NCBI GenBank assembly: GCA_964057225.1
Contig: OZ059897.1
Location: forward strand, 18,352,001-18,416,000
DNA length: 64,000 bases
Origin: Auanema rhodensis
Lineage: Eukaryota; Animalia; Nematoda
Direction of reading: 5' to 3'
Below are positions 1 through 64,000 of the stretch, piece after piece (the first letter of the stretch is position 1; each line of letters opens with the position of its first letter). Below the pieces are notes generated by a model. It was given only the letters and a program-made list of their open reading frames with translations. It was not told the origin of the DNA and did no database searches. A program made the position numbers and the translations under genes.

Positions 1-1
1 T

Positions 2-364
2 AGAGACATTCAACCGGGCGACATGGTGATGACGACTATAAAATCACACCAAATCGGCCAAAAGCTTCGGAAAAGCTATGATGGACCATGCGAAGTCATC
101 AACGTAGAAGGATCAAAAGTTCAAATCAGAAATTCATCAGGAAAACTACAAGATATCCACAAAGATAACTTGAAAATCTTCTCTCCTGCTTCACAAAACA
201 TCTCTTACAACACTCGCGCAAGGTTTCGAGAAAGTCAAGCAGAAGAAGATAGCGACATCGAAATAATAGAAGTGATCAACAGGAACAACAAGGATAGCAT
301 AGATACAGAGCCAGAAGATGAAAATGAAGACGAAATATGGCTTCCGAGGAATGAAGAAGAATAA
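2..364 (+). CDS. pol: 3' end of Ty3/gypsy-type pol: integrase C-terminal GPY/F (SH3-like) domain followed by an acidic tail; 5'-partial
   Basis: The frame is open from base 2. RDIQPGDMV...QKLRKSYDGPCEVINV...VQIR...DIHKDNLK matches the typical pattern PGDxV...KL..xY.GP..V...(V/I)H.d.LK. Integrase lies last, followed by PPT and LTR, as in Ty3/gypsy order. Confidence 0.88.
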   Translation, partial: RDIQPGDMVMTTIKSHQIGQKLRKSYDGPCEVINVEGSKVQIRNSSGKLQDIHKDNLKIFSPASQNISYNTRARFRESQAEEDSDIEIIEVINRNNKDSIDTEPEDENEDEIWLPRNEEE

Positions 365-521
365 CAACAAGATAATGCTACGTTATTTAAATTATTGTAA
401 CAAAATAACGATGAATTAAAAAAAAAAAAAAAAAATTAATGCTAAATAACATTCAAAATAAAAATAGCATTTAATAGAGATTGAGAAAGGAAAAATAAGG
501 CAAATTCTAAACGAGGAGATG

Positions 522-774
522 TTATGACTAATGGTTCCAAGTTACCGTAATCCTATGCGGACTAGAGGACATTTTGACAACCATCCGAGCTCCATGTGCC
601 TCTCCAAATAAGATGAGATGAACACTGGTAGGCGTATCAACCACAATTTCATCTTAAGTGGTAGTCTCCATTAGTAATCAAGGATTCACTCTGGGAGACA
701 TATGGAGACACATTATTAAATCATAATCTCGGTTCAATTTAGAAATGAGTACTTCTTGAGACCATTAGTCAAAA
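522..774 (+). other. Predicted nested RNA stem structure in the element 3' UTR
   Basis: 522-541 pairs with 755-774 (18/20 including G-U). 590-604 pairs with 693-707 (14/15 including G-U). 609-618 pairs with 647-656 (10/10 including G-U). The stems are concentric. Confidence 0.55.
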
Positions 775-1058
775 TAATAACATATTCCCATTCATTACTA
801 GCCCCTTTATTCTACAATCTCTATTAGGAAATGCTTGAATATTAAGATAATTAATTTATGAAATTAATAATATTCTAATTCATCGTCCCTTCATATTATA
901 TTGAACCCTTCTTATAAATTATTGTAATTTTGTTTGTATACTAACTAAAACTCTATCATACTATAGTTATTGTGAAGCTAAAACAATTGAACTCTAAAAC
1001 TCAGTTACATATAAGCCCAAATTTTTGTTTAAAATATCGCGAGGTCGCGACAATCTTT

Positions 1059-1067
1059 GAAAAAGGG
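1059..1067 (+). promoter_or_regulatory. Polypurine tract (plus-strand primer)
   Basis: GAAAAAGGG ends 2 nt (CA) before the LTR start at 1070; short but in the expected position. Confidence 0.7.
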
Positions 1068-1069
1068 CA

Positions 1070-1435
1070 CGTTCCATTCGGAGACTCTATATATGTAACT
1101 GCAGGGTTAGAGCCAGACCGACTAGAGGAATGAGGAATGGCACCGCCTTCCCTCATGCCCCTATTCGGGAGTTCGCCCCTTTGCAAGCCCATGGACGGTT
1201 TGCATCTAACTTAGTTAATCTTATATATTAGTCTTTGTCTTGTAAATGTAGTTTACTTTATCCTTGTGTTAATGTATTGTAATGATATTGTATTGTGTAT
1301 AATAAACCTATATATTTCCTTATCTTATGTAATCCTTATGCTCTGTTTCCATACCGCTACACTTATGGAATACTATACGCGTAGTTGAGCAGACTACAAT
1401 GGTCTGTTCAATATACGTAGGAGCATAATGGAACG
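1070..1435 (+). repeat. LTR copy 1 (366 bp), shared between two tandem element copies
   Basis: Identical by eye to 4975-5340. It has a 9-bp terminal inverted repeat CGTTCCATT...AATGGAACG, TATATA near 1088, AATAAA at 1301-1306, a PPT on the left and a PBS on the right. Confidence 0.93.
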
Positions 1436-1448
1436 TGGAGGTTCCACC
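1436..1448 (+). promoter_or_regulatory. Primer binding site complementary to the 3' end of tRNA-Gln
   Basis: TGGAGGTTCCACC directly abuts the LTR end and is the reverse complement of the metazoan tRNA-Gln 3' end (...GGTGGAACCTCCA). Confidence 0.88.
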
Positions 1449-2396
1449 TCGAACTCATTTTTGTCGCAAAAACTCGCATAAAAAGTCCATATTTTGATAT
1501 CTAAATTAAAACTTCCTCCACGGTTAGCAACATAATGAGGGCGCCAACTTGTATAAGGTGCAGGTACAAGGGATCTCTCTTTTAGAGAGCTAGGACTACA
1601 TAATTTTGAAATTTCACCCGCTGTCCCCACTCATAAAACCGTCTGAGTGTCCACCCTTATAATACCGTATCCTGCACCGCTTCTCTTGCATTTTTTTTTG
1701 AGGACGTTTGGATCGAAATAGGGGACAATTTCACCAAACGAAATTTTGATTACATTATTATTTGGCAACGAGGAGTTAGAATGAAATTTTGAAAGCGCAC
1801 AAAGTTTAATATTTTATTGTGGTCAGGACTAGAGATTTGAAAGTTAAATTCAGGCGTAAAAGAGCATGCTAACTAAATATTTTTGCGGGAGCCGTTATTC
1901 GGTTTTTATTTTTTTTTTGATTGTGAGAATAGACCACACTAGTCCGAAAAATCCTGGCACAAATTTTATTGCCTGTCAGGTCATTTTGGCGAAAGCACAT
2001 GGGCTACGGATGTTTTCTTCTCCGTAGAATGTGTCACCTTCCTCAGCTCATTTTTGTTGCTAACATCATAAGATATTCCCACACACCTACCGTAGTATTC
2101 ATATTGTAATATTCTATAAATTAGTAGAATGGTTTAAAGAAAAAAATTGCGTTTTATAAACGAGCTTTGGTCTCAGTCCATTAGTAAAATGAGCAATCTT
2201 TTTAAATATTCTCGGAATCTCATTAGCATGCCAAAATCATTCCGAAAAAGAATCGCCCACGGCTTTTAATAATAACGTGCACATGAGCCATTTTCCCAAG
2301 GCGCACGCACTCCTTCTTTATTAATAAGCTCGACCAAAGTTTGTGTTATGGAAAAAAAAAAAAAAGAGAGAGAGAACAAATGAGTGAAATTAAGTA

Positions 2397-2402
2397 TTTA
2401 TT
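2397..2402 (-). terminator. Candidate polyadenylation signal of the antisense gene
   Basis: AATAAA lies about 16 nt after the stop codon, with a downstream (TC)n/T-run at 2375-2352 on the minus strand. Confidence 0.5.
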
Positions 2403-2418
2403 ATATATGAAACAATTG

Positions 2419-2952
2419 TTAAAAGCCCCATTTAAAATGCAACTGTCTCACAAATTCTATAGGCTGTGAGATGGGCTCATCGCTAGGCTCTAAATACTGC
2501 GAATACACCGAATCCGCAGAGGTCCTTAGCAATAAGCCCATAGGAGACTGTTCATAAAATAAATAAATTTTAAACAAAATTTTAGACATATAATCATAAA
2601 AATCATGAGACTTATGCTCATACCAATTCCAAGGGGATGCGACCAGATTTGGGTTTTCATACCAATGCGCGCACAAGTCGGTGAGGCACCATCGCCGGAT
2701 AGCTGCAACCTCATCCGCTATTTCCTGCATTAGGGAGAAGTTTACTAATCCCCTTCCCAGATAATGCATCTTTAAATCCTCAATAAACTAAAAATTCTTA
2801 TTAAGATAACATGTTTCTTTGTTTTAACCAACCATCTTAATTATGTCTGGGTGCGGCCTATAAGCTAACACTTCGTCTTGATCATACAAGACGAGGTCAG
2901 CGTACAGCTTCCTCAAGACAAAAGTCATTCCCGATAGACCTTCATAAGCCAT
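2419..2952 (-). CDS. Predicted two-exon antisense accessory gene, 162 aa, unknown function (exon 1 2952-2833, intron 2832-2788, exon 2 2787-2419)
   Basis: Exon 1 encodes MAYEGLSGMTFVLRKLYADLVLYDQDEVLAYRPHPDIIKM. A 45-nt phase-0 intron GTTGGT...TTTTTAG contains the in-frame stops. Exon 2 encodes FIEDLK plus the 116-aa track ORF. Minus-strand AATAAA lies at 2402-2397 just after the stop, followed by a U-rich tract. Confidence 0.68.
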
Positions 2953-3365
2953 TCTTTGATTTATTTTTTTTTTTCAGCTCTACAAATATAAAGATTCTTA
3001 TGCATAAAAAGGGGACATAAAACGACTGAAAATCTCTCTCATACTTTCAAGAATTCAATTAGAGTAAAGTATTAAGATTGAGGCTAGAAAGAGCGAAGAC
3101 CAAAAAAAATTTATAATTGATGAACATCTGTGAAATAGAATAAAGAAAAGAGAATACGGTAGATAGGCGGAGCCAGATCTCAGGCCAAGATTTTAAAACT
3201 CTTTCTCATCTAATAACGATTCTCGGCGAAAGACGCCACGTCTCAATCTTCAAACGTTTCTTACTTTTCCTATAACCGACCCGAATTTCTTGTCACTCAT
3301 TCAACGTCAACATCCCCCATATAACGAAACACTCGCGGTTTTTCCGAACCAAGAGTGATTCCAAA
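2953..3365. promoter_or_regulatory. Candidate internal divergent promoter region
   Basis: It lies between two head-to-head genes. Plus strand: TATAA at 3271-3275 and Inr-like TCATTC at 3297-3302, about 28 nt apart. A GC-box-like AGGCGGAGCC lies at about 3165-3174. Minus strand: TATAAAT at 3115-3109. Confidence 0.45.
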
Positions 3366-5003
3366 GTGGCACGAAGATACTCTTCGGCCGTCCCTGCTCT
3401 ATACCCTTCTGAGTCCAGTGACGACATCGCAGTCGCCAGTCGAACCAGAAGCCGCACTCGACTCCTCAGTGTTCAGATTGAAGAGCCTGAACAAGAGGTA
3501 AAACCCAAAGTCGAGAAAACCTTCATTCCTCGAGAAGGCACGTATTCACCTCCGGACAACACCGAGGAGGACCCTGATTTCTATATTCAGGACTACAATA
3601 TTCAAACTTCAGCTTCAACTCCAAAGATAATACCGCTTATAAAGGCCAGACGAGCTGTCAACCCTTCATATTCAATTATTGACTGGGTTTCAGCACATCC
3701 CGAGAAGTTTTATTTCTTCTTAAGAAGTCCCGTATCTGATAAATCCATACAACGTTTCCTTCAAACATACGAAATACACGACCCTGAGGAAGCAATACTT
3801 TATTTTCTTGCGCAAAAGGAACTGGCAGCAACCACTCGCGGCGCTATACGGTATTTAACCTCACAACAATTATTAGAACAGATAGGTGACAGATTAACAG
3901 CACACGAATTTGACGAAAAACTGCTAGAAAAAGACGGATCCTACCGTGAAAGAGCCGAAAGCATAGCGATGGAGTTAGCTTATACACCGGTAATATTTGA
4001 AAACAATCTGTCGGTACCATCAAGGCAAGAGGTTTTAAAATCCTTTGTGAACATGCCGCCGATCCGACCAACTCTAACAACTGACAATGCTGATGAGCGT
4101 ATAGTACTTAGAAACACTCTTTACTTATACCATAACTTGATGACATTGCGAGTAATAAGGCCAAATAAAACAGCAGCAGCCGTAGATGATGAAAAGTTCC
4201 GACAATTAACAATCAATGTGCCAGATACCAACAAATTATATCGAGATAAAGATTCTAACTACGGTATATCGATAGGGCCCCACCCTCGCATTCAAAACCC
4301 AAGCGCAGATACACGCCAGCTACTTATAAAAACATTTTTACCACTGTTAGAGGATATTGAAACACCGCCTTATCTGACTAGAAGACTGTCATTAACGACA
4401 ACAACGGACAAACCCGCTTCACTAGTTCAGGAGACAACTAAAAGCCATACGACTCGGATTCCGACGACAACCACAGTTGAGACGACAACAGCCGCGATAA
4501 CTACGACTCTCTCGCCAACAACATTAGCAACAGTCACTGACACGGCGTCACGAATCTTAAGGAAACAAAGAACATCATCTCCACCCGTAGAAACCAGAGA
4601 AATTCAGGCTCAGGCAACGTATACAGCGTCAAAAGTGAACAACGAAATACAATTCAACCTCAACGTATCTCGCAGAATAGCTCAAGATCATCTACAATAT
4701 ACAACAACACTCATACAAGAAGAGCTACAGAAACATTTCATGGAATCTTATGAATCCATATGTGAGATTCAAAATAGATACCTCGAGCTATGGCGTTCTA
4801 TTTTACACATAGAACCTACAATAGCAATGAGGACTATTTTAGGAAGAGAGGATATTGCAGCCCGTTTCGTAGGCAGCGATATAGTTCATGTTCATATATG
4901 CCTACCTCTTCAACCTAAAGCTGTTTATCATAATCATAAGATCAATGATACATTTTTCAAGGCAAAGACGATGGCGTTCCATTCGGAGACTCTATATATG
5001 TAA
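3366..5003 (+). CDS. env: Envelope-like protein with a herpesvirus glycoprotein-B-like (class III fusogen) domain III segment; C-terminally truncated, with the last ~16 codons supplied by satellite and LTR
   Basis: LQYTTTLIQEELQKHFMESYESICEIQNRYLELWRSILHIEPTIAMRTILGREDIAARFVGSDIVHVHIC (4692-4901) aligns almost without gaps to the gB motif LQF.Y..(20)..WC..Q......EL.KINP......I...P.AARF.GD......C. It is preceded by a Thr-rich linker (about 4395-4545) and a minimal furin-type site RKQR (4560-4571). The start is uncertain: GTG at 3366, first ATG at 3969. Confidence 0.75.
   Translation: MARRYSSAVPALYPSESSDDIAVASRTRSRTRLLSVQIEEPEQEVKPKVEKTFIPREGTYSPPDNTEEDPDFYIQDYNIQTSASTPKIIPLIKARRAVNPSYSIIDWVSAHPEKFYFFLRSPVSDKSIQRFLQTYEIHDPEEAILYFLAQKELAATTRGAIRYLTSQQLLEQIGDRLTAHEFDEKLLEKDGSYRERAESIAMELAYTPVIFENNLSVPSRQEVLKSFVNMPPIRPTLTTDNADERIVLRNTLYLYHNLMTLRVIRPNKTAAAVDDEKFRQLTINVPDTNKLYRDKDSNYGISIGPHPRIQNPSADTRQLLIKTFLPLLEDIETPPYLTRRLSLTTTTDKPASLVQETTKSHTTRIPTTTTVETTTAAITTTLSPTTLATVTDTASRILRKQRTSSPPVETREIQAQATYTASKVNNEIQFNLNVSRRIAQDHLQYTTTLIQEELQKHFMESYESICEIQNRYLELWRSILHIEPTIAMRTILGREDIAARFVGSDIVHVHICLPLQPKAVYHNHKINDTFFKAKTMAFHSETLYM
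4951..4974 (+). repeat. 24-bp satellite remnant left of the solo LTR, ending in the left TSD ATGG (4971-4974)
   Basis: CATTTTTCAAGGCAAAGACGATGG is an exact piece of the 351-bp monomer and continues in register at 5341 with ATGG repeated. Confidence 0.92.
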
Positions 5004-5340
5004 CTGCAGGGTTAGAGCCAGACCGACTAGAGGAATGAGGAATGGCACCGCCTTCCCTCATGCCCCTATTCGGGAGTTCGCCCCTTTGCAAGCCCATGGA
5101 CGGTTTGCATCTAACTTAGTTAATCTTATATATTAGTCTTTGTCTTGTAAATGTAGTTTACTTTATCCTTGTGTTAATGTATTGTAATGATATTGTATTG
5201 TGTATAATAAACCTATATATTTCCTTATCTTATGTAATCCTTATGCTCTGTTTCCATACCGCTACACTTATGGAATACTATACGCGTAGTTGAGCAGACT
5301 ACAATGGTCTGTTCAATATACGTAGGAGCATAATGGAACG
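4975..5340 (+). mobile_element. Solo LTR (366 bp) inserted in the satellite with a 4-bp TSD ATGG
   Basis: Identical to 1070-1435 and flanked by ATGG at 4971-4974 and 5341-5344. Satellite lies on both sides; there is no PPT or PBS. Confidence 0.9.
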
Positions 5341-8300
5341 ATGGACAATGTTATTCAACGAAAAAATTAATTCTTCAGGGTGAAAATCGAGGATATAAGT
5401 GTGAACTTATATCAGTTGATATCTCGGTGCATTTTTAAGCTAGCGCAAATCTGATAACACAGATCGACGCAGCTTAAAAATCCGCATCGAATGCACTATA
5501 CTACATTGAGAAACGCTTAATACAAAAATTAGTTATGATCGTTTGAAAAATGATGCATTAGTGTATGTTGAGTTTCCATGTACACTCAATATTGCTTCCA
5601 AAAACATTTTGACAAAAATGTTTTCGAAAAATTTCAAAATAATTTAGCAAAAAGTAGATGTTTTTAGATTTCTTTTTTCAAGGCAAAGACGATGGACAAT
5701 GTTATTCAACGAAAAAATCATTTCTTCAGGGTGAAAATCGAGGATATAAGTGTGAACTTATATCAGTTGATATCTGGGTGCATTTTTAAGCTAGCGCAAA
5801 TCTGATAACACAGATCGACGCAGCTTAAAAATCCGCATCGAATGCACTATACTACATTGAGAAACGCTTAATACATAAATTAGTTATGATCGTTTGAAAA
5901 ATGATGCATTAGTGTATGTTGAGTTTCCATGTACACTCAACATTGCTTCCAAAAACATTTTGACAAAAATTTTTTCGAAAAATTTCGAAATAATTTAGCA
6001 AAAAGTAGATGTTTTTAGATTCCATTTTTCAAGGCAAAGACGATAGACAATGTTATTCAACGAAAAAATTAATTCTTCAGGGTGAAAATCGAGGATATAA
6101 GTGTGAACTTATATCAGTTGATATCTCGGTGCATTTTTAAGCTAGCGCAAATCTGATAACACAGATCGACGCAGCTTAAAAATCCGCATCGAATGCACTA
6201 TACTACATTGAGAAACGCTTAATACAAAAATTAGTTATAATCGTTTGAAAAATGATGCATTAGTGTATGTTGAGTTTCCATGTACACTCAACATTGCTTC
6301 CAAAAACATTTTGACAAAAATTTTTTCGAAAAATTTCAAAATAATTTAGCAAAAAGTAGATGTTTTTAGATTCCATTTTTCAAGGCAAAGACGATAGACA
6401 ATGTTATTCAACGAAAAAATTAATTCTTTAGGGTGAAAATCGAGGATATAAGTGTGAACTTATATCAGTTGATATCTCGGTGCATTTTTAAGCTAGCGCA
6501 AATCTGATAACACAGATCGACGCAGCTTAAAAATCCGCATCGAATGCTTTATACTACATTGAGAAACGCTTAATACAAAAATTAGTTATGATCGTTTGAA
6601 AAATGATGCATTAGTGTATGTTGAGTTTCCATGTACACTCAACATTGCTTCCAAAAACATTTTGACAAAAATTTTTTCGAAAAATTTCAAAATATTTTAG
6701 CAAAAAGTAGATGTTTTTAGATTCCATTTTTCAAGGCAAAGACGATGGACAATGTTATTCAACGAAAAAATTAATTCTTCAGGGTGAAAATCGAGGATAT
6801 AAGTGTGAACTTATATCAGTTGATATCTCGGTGCATTTTTAAGCTAGCGCAAATCTGATAACACAGATCGACGCAGCTTAAAAATCCGCATCGAATGCAC
6901 TATACTACATTGAGAAACGCTTAATACATAAATTAGTTATGATCGTTTGAAAAATGATGCATTAGTGTATGTTGAGTTTCCATGTACACTCAACATTGCT
7001 TCCAAAAACATTTTGACAAAAATTTTTTCGAAAAATTTCAAAATAATTTAGCAAAAAGTAGATGTTTTTAGATTCCATTTTTCAAGGCAAAGACGATGGA
7101 CAATGTTATTCAACGAAAAAAATAATTCTTCAGGGTGAAAATCGAGGATATAAGTGTGAACTTATATCAGTTGATATCTCGGTGCATTTTTAAGCTAGCG
7201 CAAATCTGATAACACAGATCGACGCAGCTTAAAAATCCGCATCGAATGCACTATACTACATTGAAACACGCTTAATACATAAATTAGTTATGATCGTTTG
7301 AAAAATGATGCATTAGTGTATGTTGAGTTTCCATGTACACTCAACATTGCTTCCAAAAACATTTTGACAAAAATTTTTTCGAAAAATTTCAAAATAATTT
7401 AGCAAAAAGTAGATGTTTTTAGATTCCATTTTTCAAGGCAAAGACGATGGACAATGTTATTCAACGAAAAAATTAATTCTTCAGGGTGAAAATCGAAGAT
7501 ATAAGTGTGAACTTATATCAGTTGATATCTCGGTGCATTTTTAAGCTAGCGCAAATCTGATAACACAGATCGACGCAGCTTAAAAATCCGCATCGAATGC
7601 ACTATACTACATTGAGAAACGCTCAATACAAAAATTAGTTATAATCGTTTGAAAAATGATGCATTAGTGTATGTTGAGTTTCCATGTACACTCAACATTG
7701 CTTCCAAAAACATTTTGACAAAAATTTTTTCGAAAAATTTCAAAATAATTTAGCAAAAAGTAGATGTTTTTAGATTCCATTTTTCAAGGCAAAGACGATG
7801 GACAATGTTATTCAACGAAAAAATTAATTCTTCAGGGTGAAAATCGAAGATATAAGTGTGAACTTATATCAGTTGATATCTCGGTGCATTTTTAAGCTAG
7901 CGCAAATCTGATAACACAGATCGACGCAGCTTAAAAATCCGCATCGAATGCACTATACTACATTGAGAAACGCTCAATACAAAAATTAGTTATAATCGTT
8001 TGAAAAATGATGCATTAGTGTATGTTGAGTTTCCATGTACACTCAACATTGCTTCCAAAAACATTTTGACAAAAATTTTTTCGAAAAATTTCAAAATAAT
8101 TTAGCAAAAAGTAGATGTTTTTAGATTCCATTTTTCAAGGCAAAGACGATGGACAATGTTATTCAACGAAAAAATTAATTCTTCAGGGTGAAAATCGAGG
8201 ATATAAGTGTGAACTTATATCAGTTGATATCTCGGTGCATTTTTAAGCTAGCGCAAATCTGATAACACAGATCGACGCAGCTTAAAAATCCGCATCGAAT

Positions 8301-11300
8301 GCACTATACTACATTGAGAAACGCTTAATACAAAAATTAGTTATAATCGTTTGAAAAATGATGCATTAGTGTATGTTGAGTTTCCATGTACACTCAACAT
8401 TGCTTCCAAAAACATTTTGACAAAAATTTTTTCGAAAAATTTCAAAATAATTTAGCAAAAAGTAGATGTTTTTAGATTCCATTTTTCAAGGCAAAGACGA
8501 TGGACAATGTTATTCAACGAAAAAATTAATTCTTCAGGGTGAAAATCGAAGATATAAGTGTGAACTTATATCAGTTGATATCTCGGTGCATTTTTAAGCT
8601 AGCGCAAATCTGATAACACAGATCGACGCAGCTTAAAAATCCGCATCGAATGCACTATACTACATTGAGAAACGCTCAATACAAAAATTAGTTATAATCG
8701 TTTGAAAAATGATGCATTAGTGTATGTTGAGTTTCCATGTACACTCAACATTGCTTCCAAAAACATTTTGACAAAAATTTTTTCGAAAAATTTCAAAATA
8801 ATTTAGCAAAAAGTAGATGTTTTTAGATTCCATTTTTCAAGGCAAAGACGATGGACAATGTTATTCAACGAAAAAATTAATTCTTCAGGGTGAAAATCGA
8901 AGATATAAGTGTGAACTTATATCAGTTGATATCTCGGTGCATTTTTAAGCTAGCGCAAATCTGATAACACAGATCGACGCAGCTTAAAAATCCGCATCGA
9001 ATGCACTATACTACATTGAGAAACGCTTAATACAAAAATTAGTTATAATCGTTTGAAAAATGATGCATTAGTGTATGTTGAGTTTCCATGTACACTCAAC
9101 ATTGCTTCCAAAAACATTTTGACAAAAATTTTTTCGAAAAATTTCAAAATAATTTAGCAAAAAGTAGATGTTTTTAGATTCCATTTTTCAAGGCAAAGAC
9201 GATGGACAATGTTATTCAACGAAAAAATTAATTCTTCAGGGTGAAAATCGAGGATATAAGTGTGAACTTATATCAGTTGATATCTCGGTGCATTTTTAAG
9301 CTAGCGCAAATCTGATAACACAGATCGACGCAGCTTAAAAATCCGCATCGAATGCACTATACTACATTGAGAAACGCTTAATACATAAATTAGTTATGAT
9401 CGTTTGAAAAATGATGCATTAGTGTATGTTGAGTTTCCATGTACACTCAACATTGCTTCCAAAAACATTTTGACAAAAATTTTTTCGAAAAATTTCAAAA
9501 TAATTTAGCAAAAAGTAGATGTTTTTAGATTCCATTTTTCAAGGCAAAGACGATGGACAATGTTATTCAACGAAAAAATTAATTCTTCAGGGTGAAAATC
9601 GAGGATATAAGTGTGAACTTATATCAGTTGATATCTCGGTGCATTTTTAAGCTAGCGCAAATCTGATAACACAGATCGACGCAGCTTAAAAATCCGCATC
9701 GAATGCACTATACTACATTGAGAAACGCTTAATACATAAATTAGTTATGATCGTTTGAAAAATGATGCATTAGTGTATGTTGAGTTTCCATGTACACTCA
9801 ACATTGCTTCCAAAAACATTTTGACAAAAATTTTTTCGAAAAATTTCAAAATAATTTAGCAAAAAGTAGATGTTTTTAGATTCCATTTTTCAAGGCAAAG
9901 ACGATGGACAATGTTATTCAACGAAAAAATTAATTCTTCAGGGTGAAAATCGAAGATATAAGTGTGAACTTATATCAGTTGATATCTCGGTGCATTTTTA
10001 AGCTAGCGCAAATCTGATAACACAGATCGACGCAGCTTAAAAATCCGCATCGAATGCACTATACTACATTGAGAAACGCTCAATACAAAAATTAGTTATA
10101 ATCGTTTGAAAAATGATGCATTAGTGTATGTTGAGTTTCCATGTACACTCAACATTGCTTCCAAAAACATTTTGACAAAAATTTTTTCGAAAAATTTCAA
10201 AATAATTTAGCAAGAAGTAGATGTTTTTAGATTCCATTTTTCAAGGCAAAGACGATGGACAATGTTATTCAACGAAAAAATTAATTCTTCAGGGTGAAAA
10301 TCGAAGATATAAGTGTGAACTTATATCAGTTGATATCTCGGTGCATTTTTAAGCTAGCGCAAATCTGATAACACAGATCGACGCAGCTTAAAAATCCGCA
10401 TCGAATGCACTATACTACATTGAGAAACGCTTAATACAAAAATTAGTTATAATCGTTTGAAAAATGATGCATTAGTGTATGTTGAGTTTCCATGTACACT
10501 CAACATTGCTTCCAAAAACATTTTGACAAAAATTTTTTCGAAAAATTTCAAAATAATTTAGCAAAAAGTAGATGTTTTTAGATTCCATTTTTCAAGGCAA
10601 AGACGATAGACAATGTTATTCAACGAAAAAATTAATTCTTCAGGGTGAAAATCGAGGATATAAGTGTGAACTTATATCAGTTGATATCTCGGTGCATTTT
10701 TAAGCTAGCGCAAATCTGATAACACAGATCGACGCAGCTTAAAAATCCGCATCGAATGCACTATACTACATTAAGAAACGCTTGATACAAAAATTAGTTA
10801 TGATCGTTTGAAAAATGATGCATTAGTGTATGTTGAGTTTCCATGTACAATCAACATTGCTTCCAAAAACATTTTGACAAAAATTTTTTCGAAAAATTTC
10901 AAAATAATTTAGCAAAAAGTAGATGTTTTTAGATTTCATTTTTCAAGGCAAAGACGATGGACAATGTTATTCAACGAAAAAATTAATTCTTCAGGGTGAA
11001 AATCGAGGATATAAGTGTGAACCTATATCAGTTGATATCTCGGTGCATTTTTAAGCTAGCGCAAATCTGATAACACAGATCGACGCAGCTTAAAAATCCG
11101 CATCGAATGCACTATACTACATTGAGAAACGCTCAATACAAAAATTAGTTATAATCGTTTGAAAAATGATGCATTAGTGTATGTTGAGTTTCCATGTACA
11201 CTCAACATTGCTTCCAAAAACATTTTGACAAAAATTTTTTCGAAAAATTTCAAAATAATTTAGCAAAAAGTAGATGTTTTTAGATTCCATTTTTCAAGGC

Positions 11301-14300
11301 AAAGACGATGGACAATGTTATTCAACGAAAAAATTAATTCTTCAGGGTGAAAATCGAAGATATAAGTGTGAACTTATATCAGTTGATATCTCGGTGCATT
11401 TTTAAGCTAGCGCAAATCTGATAACACAGATCGACGCAGCTTAAAAATCCGCATCGAATGCACTATACTACATTGAGAAACGCTTAATACAAAAATTAGT
11501 TATAATCGTTTGAAAAATGATGCATTAGTGTATGTTGAGTTTCCATGTACACTCAACATTGCTTCCAAAAACATTTTGACAAAAATTTTTTCGAAAAATT
11601 TCAAAATAATTTAGCAAAAAGTAGATGTTTTTAGATTCCATTTTTCAAGGCAAAGACGATGGACAATGTTATTCAACGAAAAAATTAATTCTTCAGGGTG
11701 AAAATCGAGGATATAAGTGTGAACTTATATCAGTTGATATCTCGGTGCATTTTTAAGCTAGCGCAAATCTGATAACACAGATCGACGCAGCTTAAAAATC
11801 CGCATCGAATGCACTATACTACATTGAGAAACGCTTAATACATAAATTAGTTATGATCGTTTGAAAAATGATGCATTAGTGTATGTTGAGTTACCATGTA
11901 CACTCAACATTGCTTCCAAAAACATTTTGACAAAAATTTTTTCGAAAAATTTCAAAATAATTTAGCAAAAAGTAGATGTTTTTAGATTCCATTTTTCAAG
12001 GCAAAGACGATGGACAATGTTATTCAACGAAAAAATTAATTCTTCAGGGTGAAAATCGAGGATATAAGTGTGAACTTATATCAGTTGATATCTCGGTGCA
12101 TTTTTAAGCTAGCGCAAATCTGATAACACAGATCGACGCAGCTTAAAAATCCGCATCGAATGCACTATACTACATTGAGAAACGCTTAATACATAAATTA
12201 GTTATGATCGTTTGAAAAATGATGCATTAGTGTATGTTGAGTTTCCATGTACACTCAACATTGCTTCCAAAAACATTTTGACAAAAATTTTTTCGAAAAA
12301 TTTCAAAATAATTTAGCAAAAAGTAGATGTTTTTAGATTCCATTTTTCAAGGCAAAGACGATGGACAATGTTATTCAACGAAAAAATTAATTCTTCAGGG
12401 TGAAAATCGAAGATATAAGTGTGAACTTATATCAGTTGATATCTCGGTGCATTTTTAAGCTAGCGCAAATCTGATAACACAGATCGACGCAGCTTAAAAA
12501 TCCGCATCGAATGCACTATACTACATTGAGAAACGCTCAATACAAAAATTAGTTATAATCGTTTGAAAAATGATGCATTAGTGTATGTTGAGTTTCCATG
12601 TACACTCAACATTGCTTCCAAAAACATTTTGACAAAAATTTTTTCGAAAAATTTCAAAATAATTTAGCAAAAAGTAGATGTTTTTAGATTCCATTTTTCA
12701 AGGCAAAGACGATGGACAATGTTATTCAACGAAAAAATTAATTCTTCAGGGTGAAAATCGAAGATATAAGTGTGAACTTATATCAGTTGATATCTCGGTG
12801 CATTTTTAAGCTAGCGCAAATCTGATAACACAGATCGACGCAGCTTAAAAATCCGCATCGAATGCACTATACTACATTGAGAAACGCTTAATACAAAAAT
12901 TAGTTATAATCGTTTGAAAAATGATGCATTAGTGTATGTTGAGTTTCCATGTACACTCAACATTGCTTCCAAAAACATTTTGACAAAAATTTTTTCGAAA
13001 AATTTCAAAATAATTTAGCAAAAAGTAGATGTTTTTAGATTCCATTTTTCAAGGCAAAGACGATAGACAATGTTATTCAACGAAAAAATTAATTCTTCAG
13101 GGTGAAAATCGAGGATATAAGTGTGAACTTATATCAGTTGATATCTCGGTGCATTTTTAAGCTAGCGCAAATCTGATAACACAGATCGACGCAGCTTAAA
13201 AATCCGCATCGAATGCACTATACTACATTAAGAAACGCTTGATACAAAAATTAGTTATGATCGTTTGAAAAATGATGCATTAGTGTATGTTGAGTTTCCA
13301 TGTACAATCAACATTGCTTCCAAAAACATTTTGACAAAAATTTTTTCGAAAAATTTCAAAATAATTTAGCAAAAAGTAGATGTTTTTAGATTTCATTTTT
13401 CAAGGCAAAGACGATGGACAATGTTATTCAACGAAAAAATTAATTCTTCAGGGTGAAAATCGAGGATATAAGTGTGAACCTATATCAGTTGATATCTCGG
13501 TGCATTTTTAAGCTAGCGCAAATCTGATAAGACAGATCGACGCAGCTTAAAAATCCGCATCGAATGCACTATACTACATTGAGAAACGCTTAATACAAAA
13601 ATTAGTTATGATCGTTTGAAAAATGATGCATTAGTGTATGTTGAGTTTCCATGTACACTCAACATTGCTTCCAAAAACATTTTGACAAAAATTTTTTCGA
13701 AAAATTTCAAAATAATTTAGCAAAAAGTAGATGTTTTTAGATTCCATTTTTCAAGGCAAAGACGATGGACAATGTTATTCAACGAAAAAATTAATTCTTC
13801 AGGGTGAAAATCGAGGATATAAGTGTGAACTTATATCAGTTGATATCTCGGTGCATTTTTAAGCTAGCGCAAATCTGATAACACAGATCGACGCAGCTTA
13901 AAAATCCGCATCGAATGCACTATACTACATTGAGAAACGCTTAATACATAAATTAGTTATGATCGTTTGAAAAATGATGCATTAGTGTATGTTGAGTTTC
14001 CATGTACACTCAACATTGCTTCCAAAAACATTTTGACAAAAATTTTTTCGAAAAATTTCAAAATAATTTAGCAAAAAGTAGATGTTTTTAGATTCCATTT
14101 TTCAAGGCAAAGACGATGGACAATGTTATTCAACGAAAAAATTAATTCTTCAGGGTGAAAATCGAGGATATAAGTGTGAACTTATATCAGTTGATATCTC
14201 GGTGCATTTTTAAGCTAGCGCAAATCTGATAACACAGATCGACGCAGCTTAAAAATCCGCATCGAATGCACTATACTACATTGAGAAACGCTTAATACAT

Positions 14301-17300
14301 AAATTAGTTATGATCGTTTGAAAAATGATGCATTAGTGTATGTTGAGTTTCCATGTACACTCAACATTGCTTCCAAAAACATTTTGACAAAAATTTTTTC
14401 GAAAAATTTCAAAATAATTTAGCAAAAAGTAGATGTTTTTAGATTCCATTTTTCAAGGCAAAGACGATGGACAATGTTATTCAACGAAAAAATTAATTCT
14501 TCAGGGTGAAAATCGAAGATATAAGTGTGAACTTATATCAGTTGATATCTCGGTGCATTTTTAAGCTAGCGCAAATCTGATAACACAGATCGACGCAGCT
14601 TAAAAATCCGCATCGAATGCACTATACTACATTGAGAAACGCTCAATACAAAAATTAGTTATAATCGTTTGAAAAATGATGCATTAGTGTATGTTGAGTT
14701 TCCATGTACACTCAACATTGCTTCCAAAAACATTTTGACAAAAATTTTTTCGAAAAATTTCAAAATAATTTAGCAAAAAGTAGATGTTTTTAGATTCCAT
14801 TTTTCAAGGCAAAGACGATGGACAATGTTATTCAACGAAAAAATTAATTCTTCAGGGTGAAAATCGAAGATATAAGTGTGAACTTATATCAGTTGATATC
14901 TCGGTGCATTTTTAAGCTAGCGCAAATCTGATAACACAGATCGACGCAGCTTAAAAATCCGCATCGAATGCACTATACTACATTGAGAAACGCTTAATAC
15001 AAAAATTAGTTATAATCGTTTGAAAAATGATGCATTAGTGTATGTTGAGTTTCCATGTACACTCAACATTGCTTCCAAAAACATTTTGACAAAAATTTTT
15101 TCGAAAAATTTCAAAATAATTTAGCAAAAAGTAGATGTTTTTAGATTCCATTTTTCAAGGCAAAGACGATAGACAATGTTATTCAACGAAAAAATTAATT
15201 CTTCAGGGTGAAAATCGAGGATATAAGTGTGAACTTATATCAGTTGATATCTCGGTGCATTTTTAAGCTAGCGCAAATCTGATAACACAGATCGACGCAG
15301 CTTAAAAATCCGCATCGAATGCACTATACTACATTAAGAAACGCTTGATACAAAAATTAGTTATGATCGTTTGAAAAATGATGCATTAGTGTATGTTGAG
15401 TTTCCATGTACAATCAACATTGCTTCCAAAAACATTTTGACAAAAATTTTTTCGAAAAATTTCAAAATAATTTAGCAAAAAGTAGATGTTTTTAGATTTC
15501 ATTTTTCAAGGCAAAGACGATGGACAATGTTATTCAACGAAAAAATTAATTCTTCAGGGTGAAAATCGAGGATATAAGTGTGAACCTATATCAGTTGATA
15601 TCTCGGTGCATTTTTAAGCTAGCGCAAATCTGATAAGACAGATCGACGCAGCTTAAAAATCCGCATCGAATGCACTATACTACATTGAGAAACGCTTAAT
15701 ACAAAAATTAGTTATGATCGTTTGAAAAATGATGCATTAGTGTATGTTGAGTTTCCATGTACACTCAACATTGCTTCCAAAAACATTTTGACAAAAATTT
15801 TTTCGAAAAATTTCAAAATAATTTAGCAAAAAGTAGATGTTTTTAGATTCCTTTTTTCAAGGCAAAGACGATGGACAATGTTATTCAACGAAAAAATTAT
15901 TTCTTCAGGGTGAAAATCGAGGATATAAGTGTGAACTTATATCAGTTGATATCTCGGTGCATTTTTAAGCTAGCGCAAATCTGATAACACAGATCGACGC
16001 AGCTTAAAAATCCGCATCGAATGCACTTTACTACATTGAGAAACGCTTGATACAAAAATTAGTTATGATCGTTTGAAAAATGATGCATTAGTGTATGTTG
16101 AGTTTCCATGTACACTCAACATTGCTTCCAAAAACATTTTGACAAAAATTTTTTCGAAAAATTTCAAAATAATTTAGCAAAAAGTAGATGTTTTTAGATT
16201 CCATTTTTCAAGGCAAAGACGATAGACAATGTTATTCAACGAAAAAATTAATTCTTCAGGGTGAAAATCGAGGATATAAGTGTGAACTTATATCAGTTGA
16301 TATCTCGGTGCATTTTTAAGCTAGCGCAAATCTGATAACACAGATCGACGCAGCTTAAAAATCCGCATCGAATGCACTATACTACATTGAGAAACGCTTA
16401 ATACAAAAATTAGTTATAATCGTTTGAAAAATGATGCATTAGTGTATGTTGAGTTTCCATGTACACTCAACATTGCTTCCAAAAACATTTTGACAAAAAT
16501 TTTTTCGAAAAATTTCAAAATAATTTAGCAAAAAGTAGATGTTTTTAGATTTCATTTTTCAAGGCAAAGACGATGGACAATGTTATTCAACGAAAAAATT
16601 AATTCTTCAGGGTGAAAATCGAGGATATAAGTGTGAACTTATATCAGTTGATATCTCGGTGCATTTTTAAGCTAGCGCAAATCTGATAACACAGATCGAC
16701 GCAGCTTAAAAATCCGCATCGAATGCACTATACTACATTGAGAAACGCTTAATACAAAAATTAGTTATGATCGTTTGAAAAATGATGCATTAGTGTATGT
16801 TGAGTTTCCATGTACACTCAACATTGCTTCCAAAAACATTTTGACAAAAATTTTTTCGAAAAATTTCAAAATAATTTAGCAAAAAGTAGATGTTTTTAGA
16901 TTTCTTTTTTCAAGGCAAAGACGATGGACAATGTTATTCAACGAAAAAATCATTTCTTCAGGGTGAAAATCGAGGATATAAGTGTGAACTTATATCAGTT
17001 GATATCTGGGTGCATTTTTAAGCTAGCGCAAATCTGATAACACAGATCGACGCAGCTTAAAAATCCGCATCGAATGCACTATACTACATTAAGAAACGCT
17101 TGATACAAAAATTAGTTATGATCGTTTGAAAAATGATGCATTAGTGTATGTTGAGTTTCCATGTACACTCAATATTGCTTCCAAAAACATTTTGACAAAA
17201 ATTTTTTCGAAAAATTTCAAAATAATTTAGCAAAAAGTAGATGTTTTTAGATTCCATTTTTCAAGGCAAAGACGATAGACAATGTTATTCAACGAAAAAA

Positions 17301-20300
17301 TTAATTCTTCAGGGTGAAAATCGAGGATATAAGTGTGAACTTATATCAGTTGATATCTCGGTGCATTTTTAAGCTAGCGCAAATCTGATAACACAGATCG
17401 ACGCAGCTTAAAAATCCGCATCGAATGCACTATACTACATTAAGAAACGCTTGATACAAAAATTAGTTATGATCGTTTGAAAAATGATGCATTAGTGTAT
17501 GTTGAGTTTCCATGTACAATCAACATTGCTTCCAAAAACATTTTGACAAAAATTTTTTCGAAAAATTTCAAAATAATTTAGCAAAAAGTAGATGTTTTTA
17601 GATTCCATTTTTCAAGGCAAAGACGATGGACAATGTTATTCAACGAAAAAATTAATTCTTCAGGGTGAAAATCGAGGATATAAGTGTGAACCTATATCAG
17701 TTGATATCTCGGTGCATTTTTAAGCTAGCGCAAATCTGATAAGACAGATCGACGCAGCTTAAAAATCCGCATCGAATGCACTATACTACATTGAGAAACG
17801 CTTAATACAAAAATTAGTTATGATCGTTTGAAAAATGATGCATTAGTGTATGTTGAGTTTCCATGTACACTCAACATTGCTTCCAAAAACATTTTGACAA
17901 AAATTTTTTCGAAAAATTTCAAAATAATTTAGCAAAAAGTAGATGTTTTTAGATTCCATTTTTCAAGGCAAAGACGATGGACAATGTTATTCAACGAAAA
18001 AATTATTTCTTCAGGGTGAAAATCGAGGATATAAGTGTGAACTTATATCAGTTGATATCTCGGTGCATTTTTAAGCTAGCGCAAATCTGATAACACAGAT
18101 CGACGCAGCTTAAAAATCCGCATCGAATGCACTTTACTACATTGAGAAACGCTTGATACAAAAATTAGTTATGATCGTTTGAAAAATGATGCATTAGTGT
18201 ATGTTGAGTTTCCATGTACACTCAACATTGCTTCCAAAAACATTTTGACAAAAATTTTTTCGAAAAATTTCAAAATAATTTAGCAAAAAGTAGATGTTTT
18301 TAGATTCCATTTTTCAAGGCAAAGACGATAGACAATGTTATTCAACGAAAAAATTAATTCTTCAGGGTGAAAATCGAGGATATAAGTGTGAACTTATATC
18401 AGTTGATATCTCGGTGCATTTTTAAGCTAGCGCAAATCTGATAACACAGATCGACGCAGCTTAAAAATCCGCATCGAATGCACTATACTACATTAAGAAA
18501 CGCTTGATACAAAAATTAGTTATGATCGTTTGAAAAATGATGCATTAGTGTATGTTGAGTTTCCATGTACAATCAACATTGCTTCCAAAAACATTTTGAC
18601 AAAAATTTTTTCGAAAAATTTCAAAATAATTTAGCAAAAAGTAGATGTTTTTAGATTCCATTTTTCAAGGCAAAGACGATGGACAATGTTATTCAACGAA
18701 AAAATTAATTCTTCAGGGTGAAAATCGAGGATATAAGTGTGAACCTATATCAGTTGATATCTCGGTGCATTTTTAAGCTAGCGCAAATCTGATAAGACAG
18801 ATCGACGCAGCTTAAAAATCCGCATCGAATGCACTATACTACATTGAGAAACGCTTAATACAAAAATTAGTTATGATCGTTTGAAAAATGATGCATTAGT
18901 GTATGTTGAGTTTCCATGTACACTCAACATTGCTTCCAAAAACATTTTGACAAAAATTTTTTCGAAAAATTTCAAAATAATTTAGCAAAAAGTAGATGTT
19001 TTTAGATTCCATTTTTCAAGGCAAAGACGATGGACAATGTTATTCAACGAAAAAATTATTTCTTCAGGGTGAAAATCGAGGATATAAGTGTGAACTTATA
19101 TCAGTTGATATCTCGGTGCATTTTTAAGCTAGCGCAAATCTGATAACACAGATCGACGCAGCTTAAAAATCCGCATCGAATGCACTTTACTACATTGAGA
19201 AACGCTTGATACAAAAATTAGTTATGATCGTTTGAAAAATGATGCATTAGTGTATGTTGAGTTTCCATGTACACTCAACATTGCTTCCAAAAACATTTTG
19301 ACAAAAATTTTTTCGAAAAATTTCAAAATAATTTAGCAAAAAGTAGATGTTTTTAGATTCCATTTTTCAAGGCAAAGACGATAGACAATGTTATTCAACG
19401 AAAAAATTAATTCTTCAGGGTGAAAATCGAGGATATAAGTGTGAACTTATATCAGTTGATATCTCGGTGCATTTTTAAGCTAGCGCAAATCTGATAACAC
19501 AGATCGACGCAGCTTAAAAATCCGCATCGAATGCACTATACTACATTAAGAAACGCTTGATACAAAAATTAGTTATGATCGTTTGAAAAATGATGCATTA
19601 GTGTATGTTGAGTTTCCATGTACAATCAACATTGCTTCCAAAAACATTTTGACAAAAATTTTTTCGAAAAATTTCAAAATAATTTAGCAAAAAGTAGATG
19701 TTTTTAGATTCCATTTTTCAAGGCAAAGACGATGGACAATGTTATTCAACGAAAAAATTAATTCTTCAGGGTGAAAATCGAGGATATAAGTGTGAACCTA
19801 TATCAGTTGATATCTCGGTGCATTTTTAAGCTAGCGCAAATCTGATAAGACAGATCGACGCAGCTTAAAAATCCGCATCGAATGCACTATACTACATTAA
19901 GAAACGCTTGATACAAAAATTAGTTATGATCGTTTGAAAAATGATGCATTAGTGTATGTTGAGTTTCCATGTACAATCAACATTGCTTCCAAAAACATTT
20001 TGACAAAAATTTTTTCGAAAAATTTCAAAATAATTTAGCAAAAAGTAGATGTTTTTAGATTCCATTTTTCAAGGCAAAGACGATGGACAATGTTATTCAA
20101 CGAAAAAATTAATTCTTCAGGGTGAAAATCGAGGATATAAGTGTGAACCTATATCAGTTGATATCTCGGTGCATTTTTAAGCTAGCGCAAATCTGATAAG
20201 ACAGATCGACGCAGCTTAAAAATCCGCATCGAATGCACTATACTACATTGAGGAACGCTTAATACAAAAATTAGTTATGATCGTTTGAAAAATGATGCAT

Positions 20301-62300: not shown

Positions 62301-64000
62301 TAGCGCAAATCTGATAACACAGATCGACGCAGCTTAAAAATCCGCATCGAATGCACTTTACTACATTGAGAAACGCTTGATACAAAAATTAGTTATGATC
62401 GTTTGAAAAATGATGCATTAGTGTATGTTGAGTTTCCATGTACACTCAACATTGCTTCCAAAAACATTTTGACAAAAATTTTTTCGAAAAATTTCAAAAT
62501 AATTTAGCAAAAAGTAGATGTTTTTAGATTCCATTTTTCAAGGCAAAGACGATGGACAATGTTATTCAACGAAAAAATTAATTCTTCAGGGTGAAAATCG
62601 AGGATATAAGTGTGAACCTATATCAGTTGATATCTCGGTGCATTTTTAAGCTAGCGCAAATCTGATAACACAGATCGACGCAGCTTAAAAATCCGCATCG
62701 AATGCACTTTACTACATTGAGAAACGCTTGATACAAAAATTAGTTATGATCGTTTGAAAAATGATGCATTAGTGTATGTTGAGTTTCCATGTACACTCAA
62801 CATTGCTTCCAAAAACATTTTGACAAAAATTTTTTCGAAAAATTTCAAAATAATTTAGCAAAAAGTAGATGTTTTTAGATTCCATTTTTCAAGGCAAAGA
62901 CGATGGACAATGTTATTCAACGAAAAAATTAATTCTTCAGGGTGAAAATCGAGGATATAAGTGTGAACTTATATCAGTTGATATCTCGGTGCATTTTTAA
63001 GCTAGCGCAAATCTGATAACACAGATCGACGCAGCTTAAAAATCCGCATCGAATGCACTATACTACATTAAGAATCGCTTGATACAAAAATTAGTTATGA
63101 TCGTTTGAAAAATGATGCATTAGTGTATGTTGAGTTTCCATGTACACTCAACATTGCTTCCAAAAACATTTTGACAAAAATTTTTTCGAAAAATTTCAAA
63201 AAAATTTAGCAAAAAATAGATGTTTTTAGATTCCATTTTTCAAGGCAAAGACGATGGACTATGTTATTCAACGAAAAAATTAATTCTTCAGGGTGAAAAT
63301 CGAGGATATAAGTGTGAACTTATATCAGTTGATATCTCGGTGCATTTTTAAGCTAGCGCAAATCTGATAACACAGATCGACGCAGCTTAAAAATCCGCAT
63401 CGAATGCACTATACTACATTAAGAAACGCTTGATACAAAAATTAGTTATGATCGTTTGAAAAATGATGCATTAGTGTATGTTGAGTTTCCATGTACAATC
63501 AACATTGCTTCCAAAAACATTTTGACAAAAATTTTTTCGAAAAATTTCAAAATAATTTAGCAAAAAGTAGATGTTTTTAGATTCCATTTTTCAAGGCAAA
63601 GACGATGGACAATGTTATTCAACGAAAAAATTAATTCTTCAGGGTGAAAATCGAGGATATAAGTGTGAACCTATATCAGTTGATATCTCGGTGCATTTTT
63701 AAGCTAGCGCAAATCTGATAACACAGATCGACGCAGCTTAAAAATCCGCATCGAATGCACTATACTACATTGAGAAACGCTTAATACAAAAATTAGTTAT
63801 GATCGTTTGAAAAATGATGCATTAGTGTATGTTGAGTTTCCATGTACACTCAACATTGCTTCCAAAAACATTTTGACAAAAATTTTTTCGAAAAATTTCA
63901 AAATAATTTAGCAAAAAGTAGATGTTTTTAGATTCCTTTTTTCAAGGCAAAGACGATGGACAATGTTATTCAACGAAAAAATTAATTCTTCAGGGTGAAA
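5341..64000. repeat. Satellite DNA array, 351-bp monomer, about 167 tandem copies, continuing past the window end; possibly centromeric or pericentromeric
   Basis: Monomer starts are at 5341, 5692, 6043...; the last start at 63956 equals 5341 + 167x351 - 2, with a single 2-bp deletion at about 37589. Copies differ mostly at about 15-20 recurrent sites. Confidence 0.99.

What the first reader, a model, noticed from the sequence alone, without database searches (positions are those of the whole stretch)
1..5344. Candidate new endogenous retrovirus-like family: gB-type env, CG termini, spliced antisense gene, inserted in satellite DNA
Seen in sequence: gypsy-type integrase end, PPT, identical LTRs, tRNA-Gln PBS, 4-bp TSD, gB-like ORF, antisense gene and a satellite target. 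Known: gB-like env genes occur in some invertebrate LTR elements (for example Ascaris Tas), and 4-bp TSDs are typical of the insect gypsy/errantivirus group. Inference: I do not recognise this combination of features, and it suggests a recently active, possibly infectious element living in satellite heterochromatin.
Basis: partly seen in the sequence, partly recalled or inferred. Interest (0 to 1): 0.88.

Follow-up and report, generated by a model that had tools for sequence, protein, structure and literature searches.

The report
Nematode envelope retrotransposon with CG ends
This is a broken, rearranged piece of a multi-copy retrovirus-like jumping gene, most likely from a nematode, whose herpesvirus-like envelope gene and overall layout are already described, but which has unusual CG ends and a small gene on the opposite strand that is likely spliced and has no known relative.

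Summary
The parts are real, but they are not one intact provirus. The window holds the integrase end of one copy, a shared 366-bp LTR, a second copy with a 2,694-bp in-frame deletion that is cut off inside env, 24 bp of satellite, and an identical solo LTR with an ATGG duplication in a 351-bp satellite. Public contigs give the family the order LTR-gag-env-pol-LTR, about 12 kb. All 26 relatives with a named organism are nematode proteins, the closest from Auanema. gB-type env, gag-env-pol order and a tRNA-Gln primer site match the published nematode errantiviruses (Chary and Hayashi, eLife 2026), so the kind is known; this scan also noted it on another genome. Not found in my searches: CG...CG LTR ends (confirmed at independent junctions), a 162-codon antisense ORF in the 5' leader whose 45-nt intron is skipped in one probable RNA run, and an env insert of at least 348 residues. 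Satellite targeting is unproven: one copy has an 11-kb low-depth flank. Infectivity is untested.

The parts
2..364 (+). End of pol of the upstream copy: integrase C-terminal (GPY/F-like, SH3-type) domain and acidic tail
   Evidence: ORF; Atlas look-alikes MLVIN_C 0.92, Integrase_p58_C 0.89; aligns to the C-termini of nematode polyproteins P0016 (E 4e-4) and P0032 (E 0.009) in a 42-protein set; no Pfam hit
515..790 (+). Predicted long RNA stem-loop in the 3' untranslated region
   Evidence: -80.3 kcal/mol, z -4.64, 0 of 200 shuffles; borders were chosen by eye, and fixed 200-nt windows over it were not significant
1059..1067 (+). Polypurine tract, followed by CA and then LTR1
   Evidence: sequence
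1070..1435 (+). LTR1, 366 bp, CG...CG, shared between two head-to-tail copies
   Evidence: contig branch points exactly at both ends
1436..1447 (+). tRNA-Gln primer-binding site, no spacer after the LTR
   Evidence: 12-mer identical to the Gln_UUG_CUG entry of two Caenorhabditis elements
2419..2787 (-). Antisense ORF exon 2 (122 codons plus stop)
   Evidence: no homologue
2788..2832 (-). 45-nt GT..AG intron, phase 0, 22% GC
   Evidence: skipped in X1, retained in X2 and X4 contigs
2833..2952 (-). Antisense ORF exon 1 (ATG at 2952, 40 codons)
3276..3626 (+). Open frame in the gag position, 117 codons, no in-frame ATG; gag identity inferred from position only
   Evidence: no Pfam hit; no hit among 42 relatives
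3625..3626 (.). Junction of a 2,694-bp (898-codon) in-frame deletion, AG shared by both sides
   Evidence: listed contigs of all 4 runs break here; X1 record 1 gives the length
3627..4953 (+). Middle part of a gB-type env: Cys-free helical insert, Thr-rich stretch, basic site, gB domain-III helix (about 4683-4931); cut off at the 3' end
4951..4974 (+). 24 bp of satellite, overlapping env by 3 letters; its last 4 letters are the left TSD
   Evidence: exact 24-bp match to 116 of 164 monomers; env contigs stop matching at 4953
4975..5340 (+). LTR2, solo LTR identical to LTR1
5341..5344 (+). Right target-site duplication ATGG
   Evidence: right LTR boundary fixed independently
5341..64000 (+). 351-bp satellite array, about 167 copies, 98.6% mean pairwise identity, no further LTR pieces

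Best explanation
The window shows rearranged remains of a multi-copy Ty3/gypsy LTR retroelement with the gene order gag-env-pol and a herpesvirus-gB-like env, likely from a rhabditid nematode close to Auanema and likely a member of the described nematode errantiviruses. Shown: LTR ends, PBS, PPT, 4-bp duplication, gene order from one public contig, in-frame phases, the deletion and the truncation. Inferred life cycle: a roughly 12-kb RNA from the 5' LTR is translated as one gag-env-pol polyprotein, as in Caenorhabditis relatives; tRNA-Gln primes reverse transcription; the DNA ends would read CA-CG...CG-TG, so that trimming two bases leaves CG-3' rather than the usual CA-3' for integrase, which cuts the target with a 4-base stagger. 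Env would let particles cross between cells (untested). The antisense gene is likely transcribed from an internal promoter upstream of gag and spliced to a 162-residue soluble accessory protein that most likely regulates the element's own RNA or its silencing (about 0.45 for that role). Inferred local history: two copies came to share LTR1; the second lost 2,694 bp; a separate insertion in satellite collapsed to a solo LTR; a deletion at a 3-letter microhomology joined the second copy to satellite 24 bp before that LTR.
For: X1 record 1 (10,394 bp) runs 2383-3626, 2,694 absent letters, 3627-4953, 4,060 letters, then 1-1081. Both gaps keep the env frame in phase with the upstream frame and the integrase frame (1 in 9 by chance); span about 12,073 bp. 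35 relatives at E<=1e-3; 32 checked, 26 named, all nematode, 6 without organism. In 11 of 20 scanned proteins the env segment lies before pol domains and in none after; P0036 has gag-gB-PR-RT-RH-IN in one chain. Domain-III identity 63-80% to five Auanema sp. proteins and 30-43% to the others, including one further Auanema protein; tree group with Auanema 93/93. eLife table: 36 of 36 nematode rows ENV_HSV, 8 of 36 tRNA-Gln, with LTRs of 173-424 bp, spans of 8.9-13.5 kb and the PBS at 0 to -1 from the LTR. Branch points at 1070 and 1435 in other insertions. The inverted repeat extends by CA/TG outside LTR1.
Against: No RT or integrase core lies in the window and no genome is held, so no pol tree was made. 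The gene order rests on one collapsed unitig that may join several copies. The gB hit is below Pfam's cut-off and fold searches of a pLDDT-58 model gave nothing. The env tree has 90 columns and no starred branch holds the window. No gag motif or start codon was found in 3276-3626. The intron skip is seen in one run whose kind is on record only as a guess ('DNA?'). The length of exon 2 alone is weak (71 of 1000 shuffles). No listed contig bridges the window's own junctions at 3626 or 4953-4975, though the table was cut.
Confidence: 0.85

Rival explanations
1. The family is as described, but the local arrangement (shared LTR, deletion, env-to-satellite joint) is an assembly error at the edge of a satellite array.
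For: The joints lie at a near-identical 59-kb array; no listed contig bridges them (434 rows not shown); no genome or raw reads were available.
Against: Both joints show short microhomology (AG; CAT), as natural deletions do; the deletion is an exact multiple of three; LTR2 has a clean 4-bp duplication.
Confidence: 0.15
2. The element actively targets the 351-bp satellite, which may be germline-restricted DNA, as a safe niche.
For: LTR2 sits in satellite with a TSD. In X2, short contigs at the LTR ends (32 bp at depth 238; 33 bp at depth 322, against 45.6 for the one long flank) suggest that several copies share the 2-3 letters next to the LTR. In Auanema rhodense, arrays of 167-504-nt units are mostly eliminated from the soma and the eliminated genes are enriched for TE sequences (passages).
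Against: n = 1 site. An 11,021-bp low-depth contig starts at the LTR's right end, which a near-identical tandem array would not give. No other LTR in about 167 monomers. The host species and the fate of this satellite are unknown. The same preprint argues that repeats accumulate there through weak selection.
Confidence: 0.15
3. The antisense ORF is not an element accessory gene but a captured host-gene fragment or a spliced non-coding antisense RNA.
For: No homologue found, none among 42 fetched relatives; the ORF length alone is borderline.
Against: The skip is one of 8 GT..AG 45-nt windows among 1,795 and joins an ATG-led exon in frame to the longest frame of the leader; exons are 40-44% GC against 22% for the intron and 31-32% for the flanks; the only listed indel inside the gene falls in the intron (2797). 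A host origin and a present role for the element do not exclude each other.
Confidence: 0.35
4. It is a BEL/Pao element of the Tas type, or an insect-type errantivirus.
For: gB-like env also occurs in BEL/Pao elements (PMC13524379 introduction); 4-bp TSDs are typical of Drosophila gypsy-group families (PMC3276498 passages).
Against: Relatives carry gypsy-type RT_RNaseH, Integrase_H2C2, rve and Ty3_capsid domains; no BEL/Pao marker family (names recalled) appeared in 36 scanned proteins; Drosophila Pao families have 5-bp TSDs; named relatives are all nematode.
Confidence: 0.02

Closest known systems
Nematode GAG-ENV-POL errantiviruses with HSV/gB-type env, above all the Caenorhabditis tRNA-Gln group (Clat_1-4, Cnig_3, Crem_1-2, Ctro_1; Chary and Hayashi, eLife 2026, PMC13524379; first reported by Sacco et al. 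2022, not held, known to me only through that citation)
   Same: gB-type env, env before pol, tRNA-Gln PBS abutting the LTR (identical 12-mer in 2 of 8), LTR about 370 bp, length about 10-13 kb, multi-copy. The paper's genome screen also had ENV-POL hits in two Auanema assemblies.
   Different: No Auanema element is in its table of intact elements. Its main text has 0 hits for 'antisense', 'target site' and 'satellite', so CG ends, TSD and antisense ORF are not addressed there; whether the Caenorhabditis members share them could not be tested. The env insert is longer here.
Unannotated env fragments from Auanema sp. JU1783 (P0001-P0008, P0010, P0018, P0019)
   Same: Same Cys-free helical insert and Thr-rich stretch before the domain-III helix; 63-80% identity in domain III for the closest five.
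   Different: 37-42% identity over the best local alignments: a sister family, not the same one; no element context is available for them.
C. elegans Cer1 (Ty3/gypsy) and its spliced accessory protein CERV (PMC10309623, passages)
   Same: Nematode gypsy element with a spliced accessory gene that serves the element's RNA.
   Different: CERV is sense-strand, includes an ORF after pol and is much larger; Cer1 has no gB env. A functional analogy only.
Plant Retand/Grande/RIRE2 elements with antisense ORFs (PMC7264820, PMC11963269, abstracts)
   Same: Conserved antisense extra ORFs inside gypsy elements, proposed regulators.
   Different: [quoted passage not shown]

Membership tests
Nematode gag-env-pol gB-type errantiviruses (Ty3/gypsy) | HSV/gB-type env | tested here: met
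   PF00606 E 3e-9, below cut-off; PDB gB rows; 35 relatives, most with gB or Monjiviricetes fusion hits
Nematode gag-env-pol gB-type errantiviruses (Ty3/gypsy) | env lies upstream of pol | tested here: met
   X1 record 1 leads from env (4953) through 4,060 letters to the integrase end and the LTR; one collapsed contig
Nematode gag-env-pol gB-type errantiviruses (Ty3/gypsy) | gag upstream of env | tested here: inconclusive
   117 open codons without motif or ATG; 898 codons are missing from this copy
Nematode gag-env-pol gB-type errantiviruses (Ty3/gypsy) | Ty3/gypsy pol (PR-RT-RH-IN) falling in the nematode clades of an RT/IN tree | not testable with these tools
   RT and IN core are outside the window and no genome is held; only the IN C-terminus, which is gypsy-like
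Nematode gag-env-pol gB-type errantiviruses (Ty3/gypsy) | LTRs with PBS and PPT; tRNA-Gln in the Caenorhabditis group | tested here: met
Nematode gag-env-pol gB-type errantiviruses (Ty3/gypsy) | Nematode host | tested here: inconclusive
   26 of 26 named relatives are nematode and the 45-nt intron fits, but the host itself is not named by any search
Nematode gag-env-pol gB-type errantiviruses (Ty3/gypsy) | Domain I/II cysteine-bridge pattern (C1a/d, C2a/c) | not testable with these tools
   Domains I and II fall in the part missing from this copy
BEL/Pao (Tas, chuvirus-glycoprotein elements) | BEL/Pao-type gag and pol domains; 5-bp TSD | tested here: not met
   4-bp TSD at the one site seen; gypsy-type domains in relatives
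Insect errantiviruses (gypsy, ZAM, Idefix) | gag-pol-env order; mostly Ser, Lys or Leu PBS | tested here: not met
   env before pol; Gln PBS; PBS types from PMC13524379 section 5
Infectious endogenous retrovirus | Enveloped particles that pass between cells | not testable with these tools
   needs observation in the animal

The most novel reading that the evidence does not exclude
A currently mobile nematode endogenous-virus lineage whose integrase joins CG-3' ends instead of the conserved CA-3', which encodes a spliced antisense accessory protein of a new family and an env with a new 250-residue helical domain, and which prefers germline-restricted satellite arrays so that its new copies are removed from the soma by programmed DNA elimination.
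Probability: 0.1. Interest if true: 0.78.

Novelty: new variant of a known kind. Interest (0 to 1): 0.38.

Why it matters
The kind is in print, so the headline claim falls. What remains is of use to specialists. CG...CG ends would be missed by LTR finders that demand TG...CA and raise the question of how this integrase reads its ends. A spliced antisense gene in the 5' leader of an animal Ty3/gypsy element is a candidate viral accessory gene. If the host undergoes programmed DNA elimination, a young family with countable copies makes it testable whether retroelements target or merely persist in germline-only DNA.

Tried and rejected
No whole genome held, so no flank table or pol tree. Word search for longer relatives of the fusion ORF: 0 of 7,975 candidates. 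Related loci: 0 of 193 pattern matches in metagenome contigs and 0 of 207 in viral contigs. Antisense exon 2 alone was searched, not the spliced product: Pfam none, word search no candidate (67-214 aa only), Atlas best 0.76, PDB best E 0.74; exon 1 Pfam none. Rfam on 1-6100: one chance row, E 0.93. AlphaFold of the env fragment: pLDDT 39 with 4 sequences, 58 with 11; Foldseek 0 matches at E<=1e-3 in viral and PDB libraries; VIA only generic coiled coils, best Z 6.2, with the insert barely tested. One search gave no flank letters, so flank identity is unknown. A 5-7-bp TSD was considered, because the LTR's last letters ACG equal the satellite letters before ATGG; rejected since the right end is fixed at 1435 by LTR1 and by another insertion. 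A second antisense gene in 365-1069 or 1436-2400 was looked for and not found. Sacco et al. 2022 is not held. Literature searches for CG ends, animal antisense ORFs and satellite targeting (listings only) showed no matching report; most subscription journals, Repbase, Dfam and GyDB were not searchable. bioRxiv supplements (repeat table of the Auanema preprint) were not seen and may bear on the satellite.

Full report
Observation. The first 5.3 kb of the window are retroelement DNA; the rest is a 351-bp satellite of about 167 copies, 98.6% alike among 160 full monomers. Two 366-bp LTRs at 1070-1435 and 4975-5340 are identical and their identity stops at both ends. They begin and end with CG inside a 9-bp inverted repeat. 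LTR1 has a purine tract before it and a primer site directly after it, so it is the 3' LTR of one copy and the 5' LTR of the next. LTR2 has ATGG on both sides, with 24 bp of satellite to its left (exact match to 116 of 164 monomers) and the array to its right: a solo LTR in satellite. The TSD therefore does not belong to the unit between the two LTRs.

What the family looks like. No genome is held. Fifteen public runs in four studies hold the stretch, 12 of them half or more of its words. Four were laid. One 10,394-bp contig of X1 follows the window from 2383 to 3626, carries 2,694 letters that the window lacks, rejoins to 4953, carries 4,060 more and then reads positions 1-1081. Listed contigs of X2, X4 and X8 also break at 3625/3626, and those of X2 and X4 stop matching at 4953. 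So the window's second copy has an internal deletion and is cut off inside env, and the family's order is LTR, leader, gag position, env, pol, LTR, about 12,073 bp. Both gaps preserve the reading phase, which fits one long polyprotein. This rests on one collapsed contig and on coordinates only.

Ends and copy number. On LTR1 alone (2 runs, 20 records, 16 shown), contigs branch exactly before 1070 and after 1435; an 11,021-bp contig at depth 45.6 starts with the last 30 LTR letters. That fixes the CG ends independently and makes the TSD 4 bp. LTR depth in X2 is about 2,100-2,240 against 784-1,085 for internal contigs, a ratio near two and some twenty times the long flank's depth. The tool warns that depth is no copy number, so I take only 'multi-copy, mostly two-LTR, homogeneous' from it: 9 of 9 X2 records were 99% or more alike. 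The long flank argues against strict satellite targeting.

Env. Residues 470-552 of the long ORF hit PF00606 (E 3e-9, below the cut-off), and a four-sequence profile returns herpesvirus gB in 32 of 33 PDB rows, weakly. A full HMMER search gave 35 relatives. Of 32 checked, 26 carry an organism name and all are nematodes (Auanema, Caenorhabditis, Heterorhabditis, Pristionchus, Steinernema, Aphelenchus); 6 have none; 3 were not looked up. In 11 of 20 scanned proteins the env segment precedes protease, RT, RNase H or integrase domains and in none does it follow them; P0036 (C. brenneri) has gag, gB, PR, RT, RH and IN in one chain. The closest are Auanema sp. JU1783 fragments; a 90-column tree of 32 rows (near-duplicates and one short fragment left out) groups the window with five of them at 93/93, unstarred. 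This subgroup has a long Cys-free insert between the domain I/II region and the domain-III helix. Fold searches were uninformative.

Integrase end. ORF 2-364 has no Pfam hit but resembles integrase C-terminal domains in the Atlas and aligns weakly to the C-termini of the nematode polyproteins.

Antisense gene. On the minus strand an ATG at 2952 opens 40 codons, a 45-nt GT..AG intron follows, then 122 codons to a stop at 2419. X1's contig skips exactly 2788-2832, while X2 and X4 contigs keep it. X1 is filed as 'DNA?', but its satellite depth is 3-12 against 10^4-10^6 in the other three runs, so I infer that it is RNA. Only 8 of 1,795 45-nt windows of the leader have GT..AG ends; exon GC is 40-44% against 22% in the intron; the length of exon 2 alone is reached by 71 of 1,000 shuffles. 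No homologue was found. A real spliced transcript is likely; a protein and its role are inferred.

Comparison. Chary and Hayashi (PMC13524379; read: abstract, part 1 of 2 of section 5, section 8, passages, and rows of supplementary tables) report that nematode errantiviruses carry only HSV/gB env in GAG-ENV-POL order, citing Sacco et al. 2022 (not held). All 36 nematode rows are ENV_HSV; 8 use tRNA-Gln, all Caenorhabditis, two with the window's exact 12-mer, six with the PBS abutting the LTR and two overlapping it by one. A search for the Gln label gave 10 element rows, while the summary sheet counts 19 for the three Gln 12-mers; I could not reconcile the two. Two Auanema assemblies had ENV-POL hits in their screen but none is in the intact-element table. 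Cer1/CERV (passages), plant antisense ORFs (abstracts), rotifer extra ORFs (passages) and Drosophila TSD lengths (passages) give analogies only. In Auanema rhodense most arrays of 167-504-nt units are eliminated from the soma (passages; supplements not seen); whether this satellite is such DNA is unknown.

Mechanism and verdict. It works like, and most probably is, a nematode gag-env-pol Ty3/gypsy errantivirus (0.85): tRNA-Gln priming, one polyprotein, 2-base end trimming to CG-3', 4-bp stagger, with env-mediated spread untested. The window's second copy is defective and the first is seen only at its end. The kind is known. The CG ends, the spliced antisense ORF in the 5' leader and the env insert were not found in my ten literature searches but may be shared by described relatives whose DNA I could not read. 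New variant of a known kind; interest 0.38.

Noticed in passing
window 1068-1069 and 1436-1437: The 9-bp terminal inverted repeat of LTR1 extends by two letters outside the LTR (CA after the PPT; TG, the first letters of the PBS), which would give symmetric 2-base overhangs if two tRNA-derived letters stay on the DNA end.
   Followed up: partly
window 1449-1456: After the PBS comes TCGAACTC, which looks like further complementarity to the tRNA T-loop region (tRNA sequence recalled, not tested).
   Followed up: no
window 3276-3626: The frame in the gag position has no in-frame ATG, and X1's contig has the same letters; a non-AUG start or a sense-strand splice is possible. ATGs at 3000 and 3120 are in the same frame but behind stops.
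   Followed up: partly
window 3625-3626: The deleted stretch ends in AG and the left side ends in AAG, as at a splice junction; its first two letters were not seen.
   Followed up: no
window 3627-4670: Env has at least 348 Cys-free residues before the domain-III helix; the Auanema relative P0006 has 415 from the last Cys, against 68-299 in the 14 other long relatives that have one. The first about 190 residues fold as a helical domain (blocks of pLDDT 55-85) of unknown kind.
   Followed up: partly
window 1168-1407 and 1430-2100: The same runs hold a diverged sister subfamily (27 differences in 240 bp of LTR) that keeps short blocks of the 5' leader.
   Followed up: no
window 515-790: Predicted long stem-loop in the 3' UTR (z -4.6), a candidate packaging or export signal.
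   Followed up: partly
window 5341-64000: The satellite has CpG observed/expected 1.4, short internal palindromes and four longer spacings between motif copies (700-721 bp); 29 of 164 monomers carry a variant at the LTR's target site.
   Followed up: no
runs X1-X15: Near-identical element DNA is held by runs filed under four organism codes in four studies; mislabelling, mixed samples or sharing between close species were not told apart.
   Followed up: no
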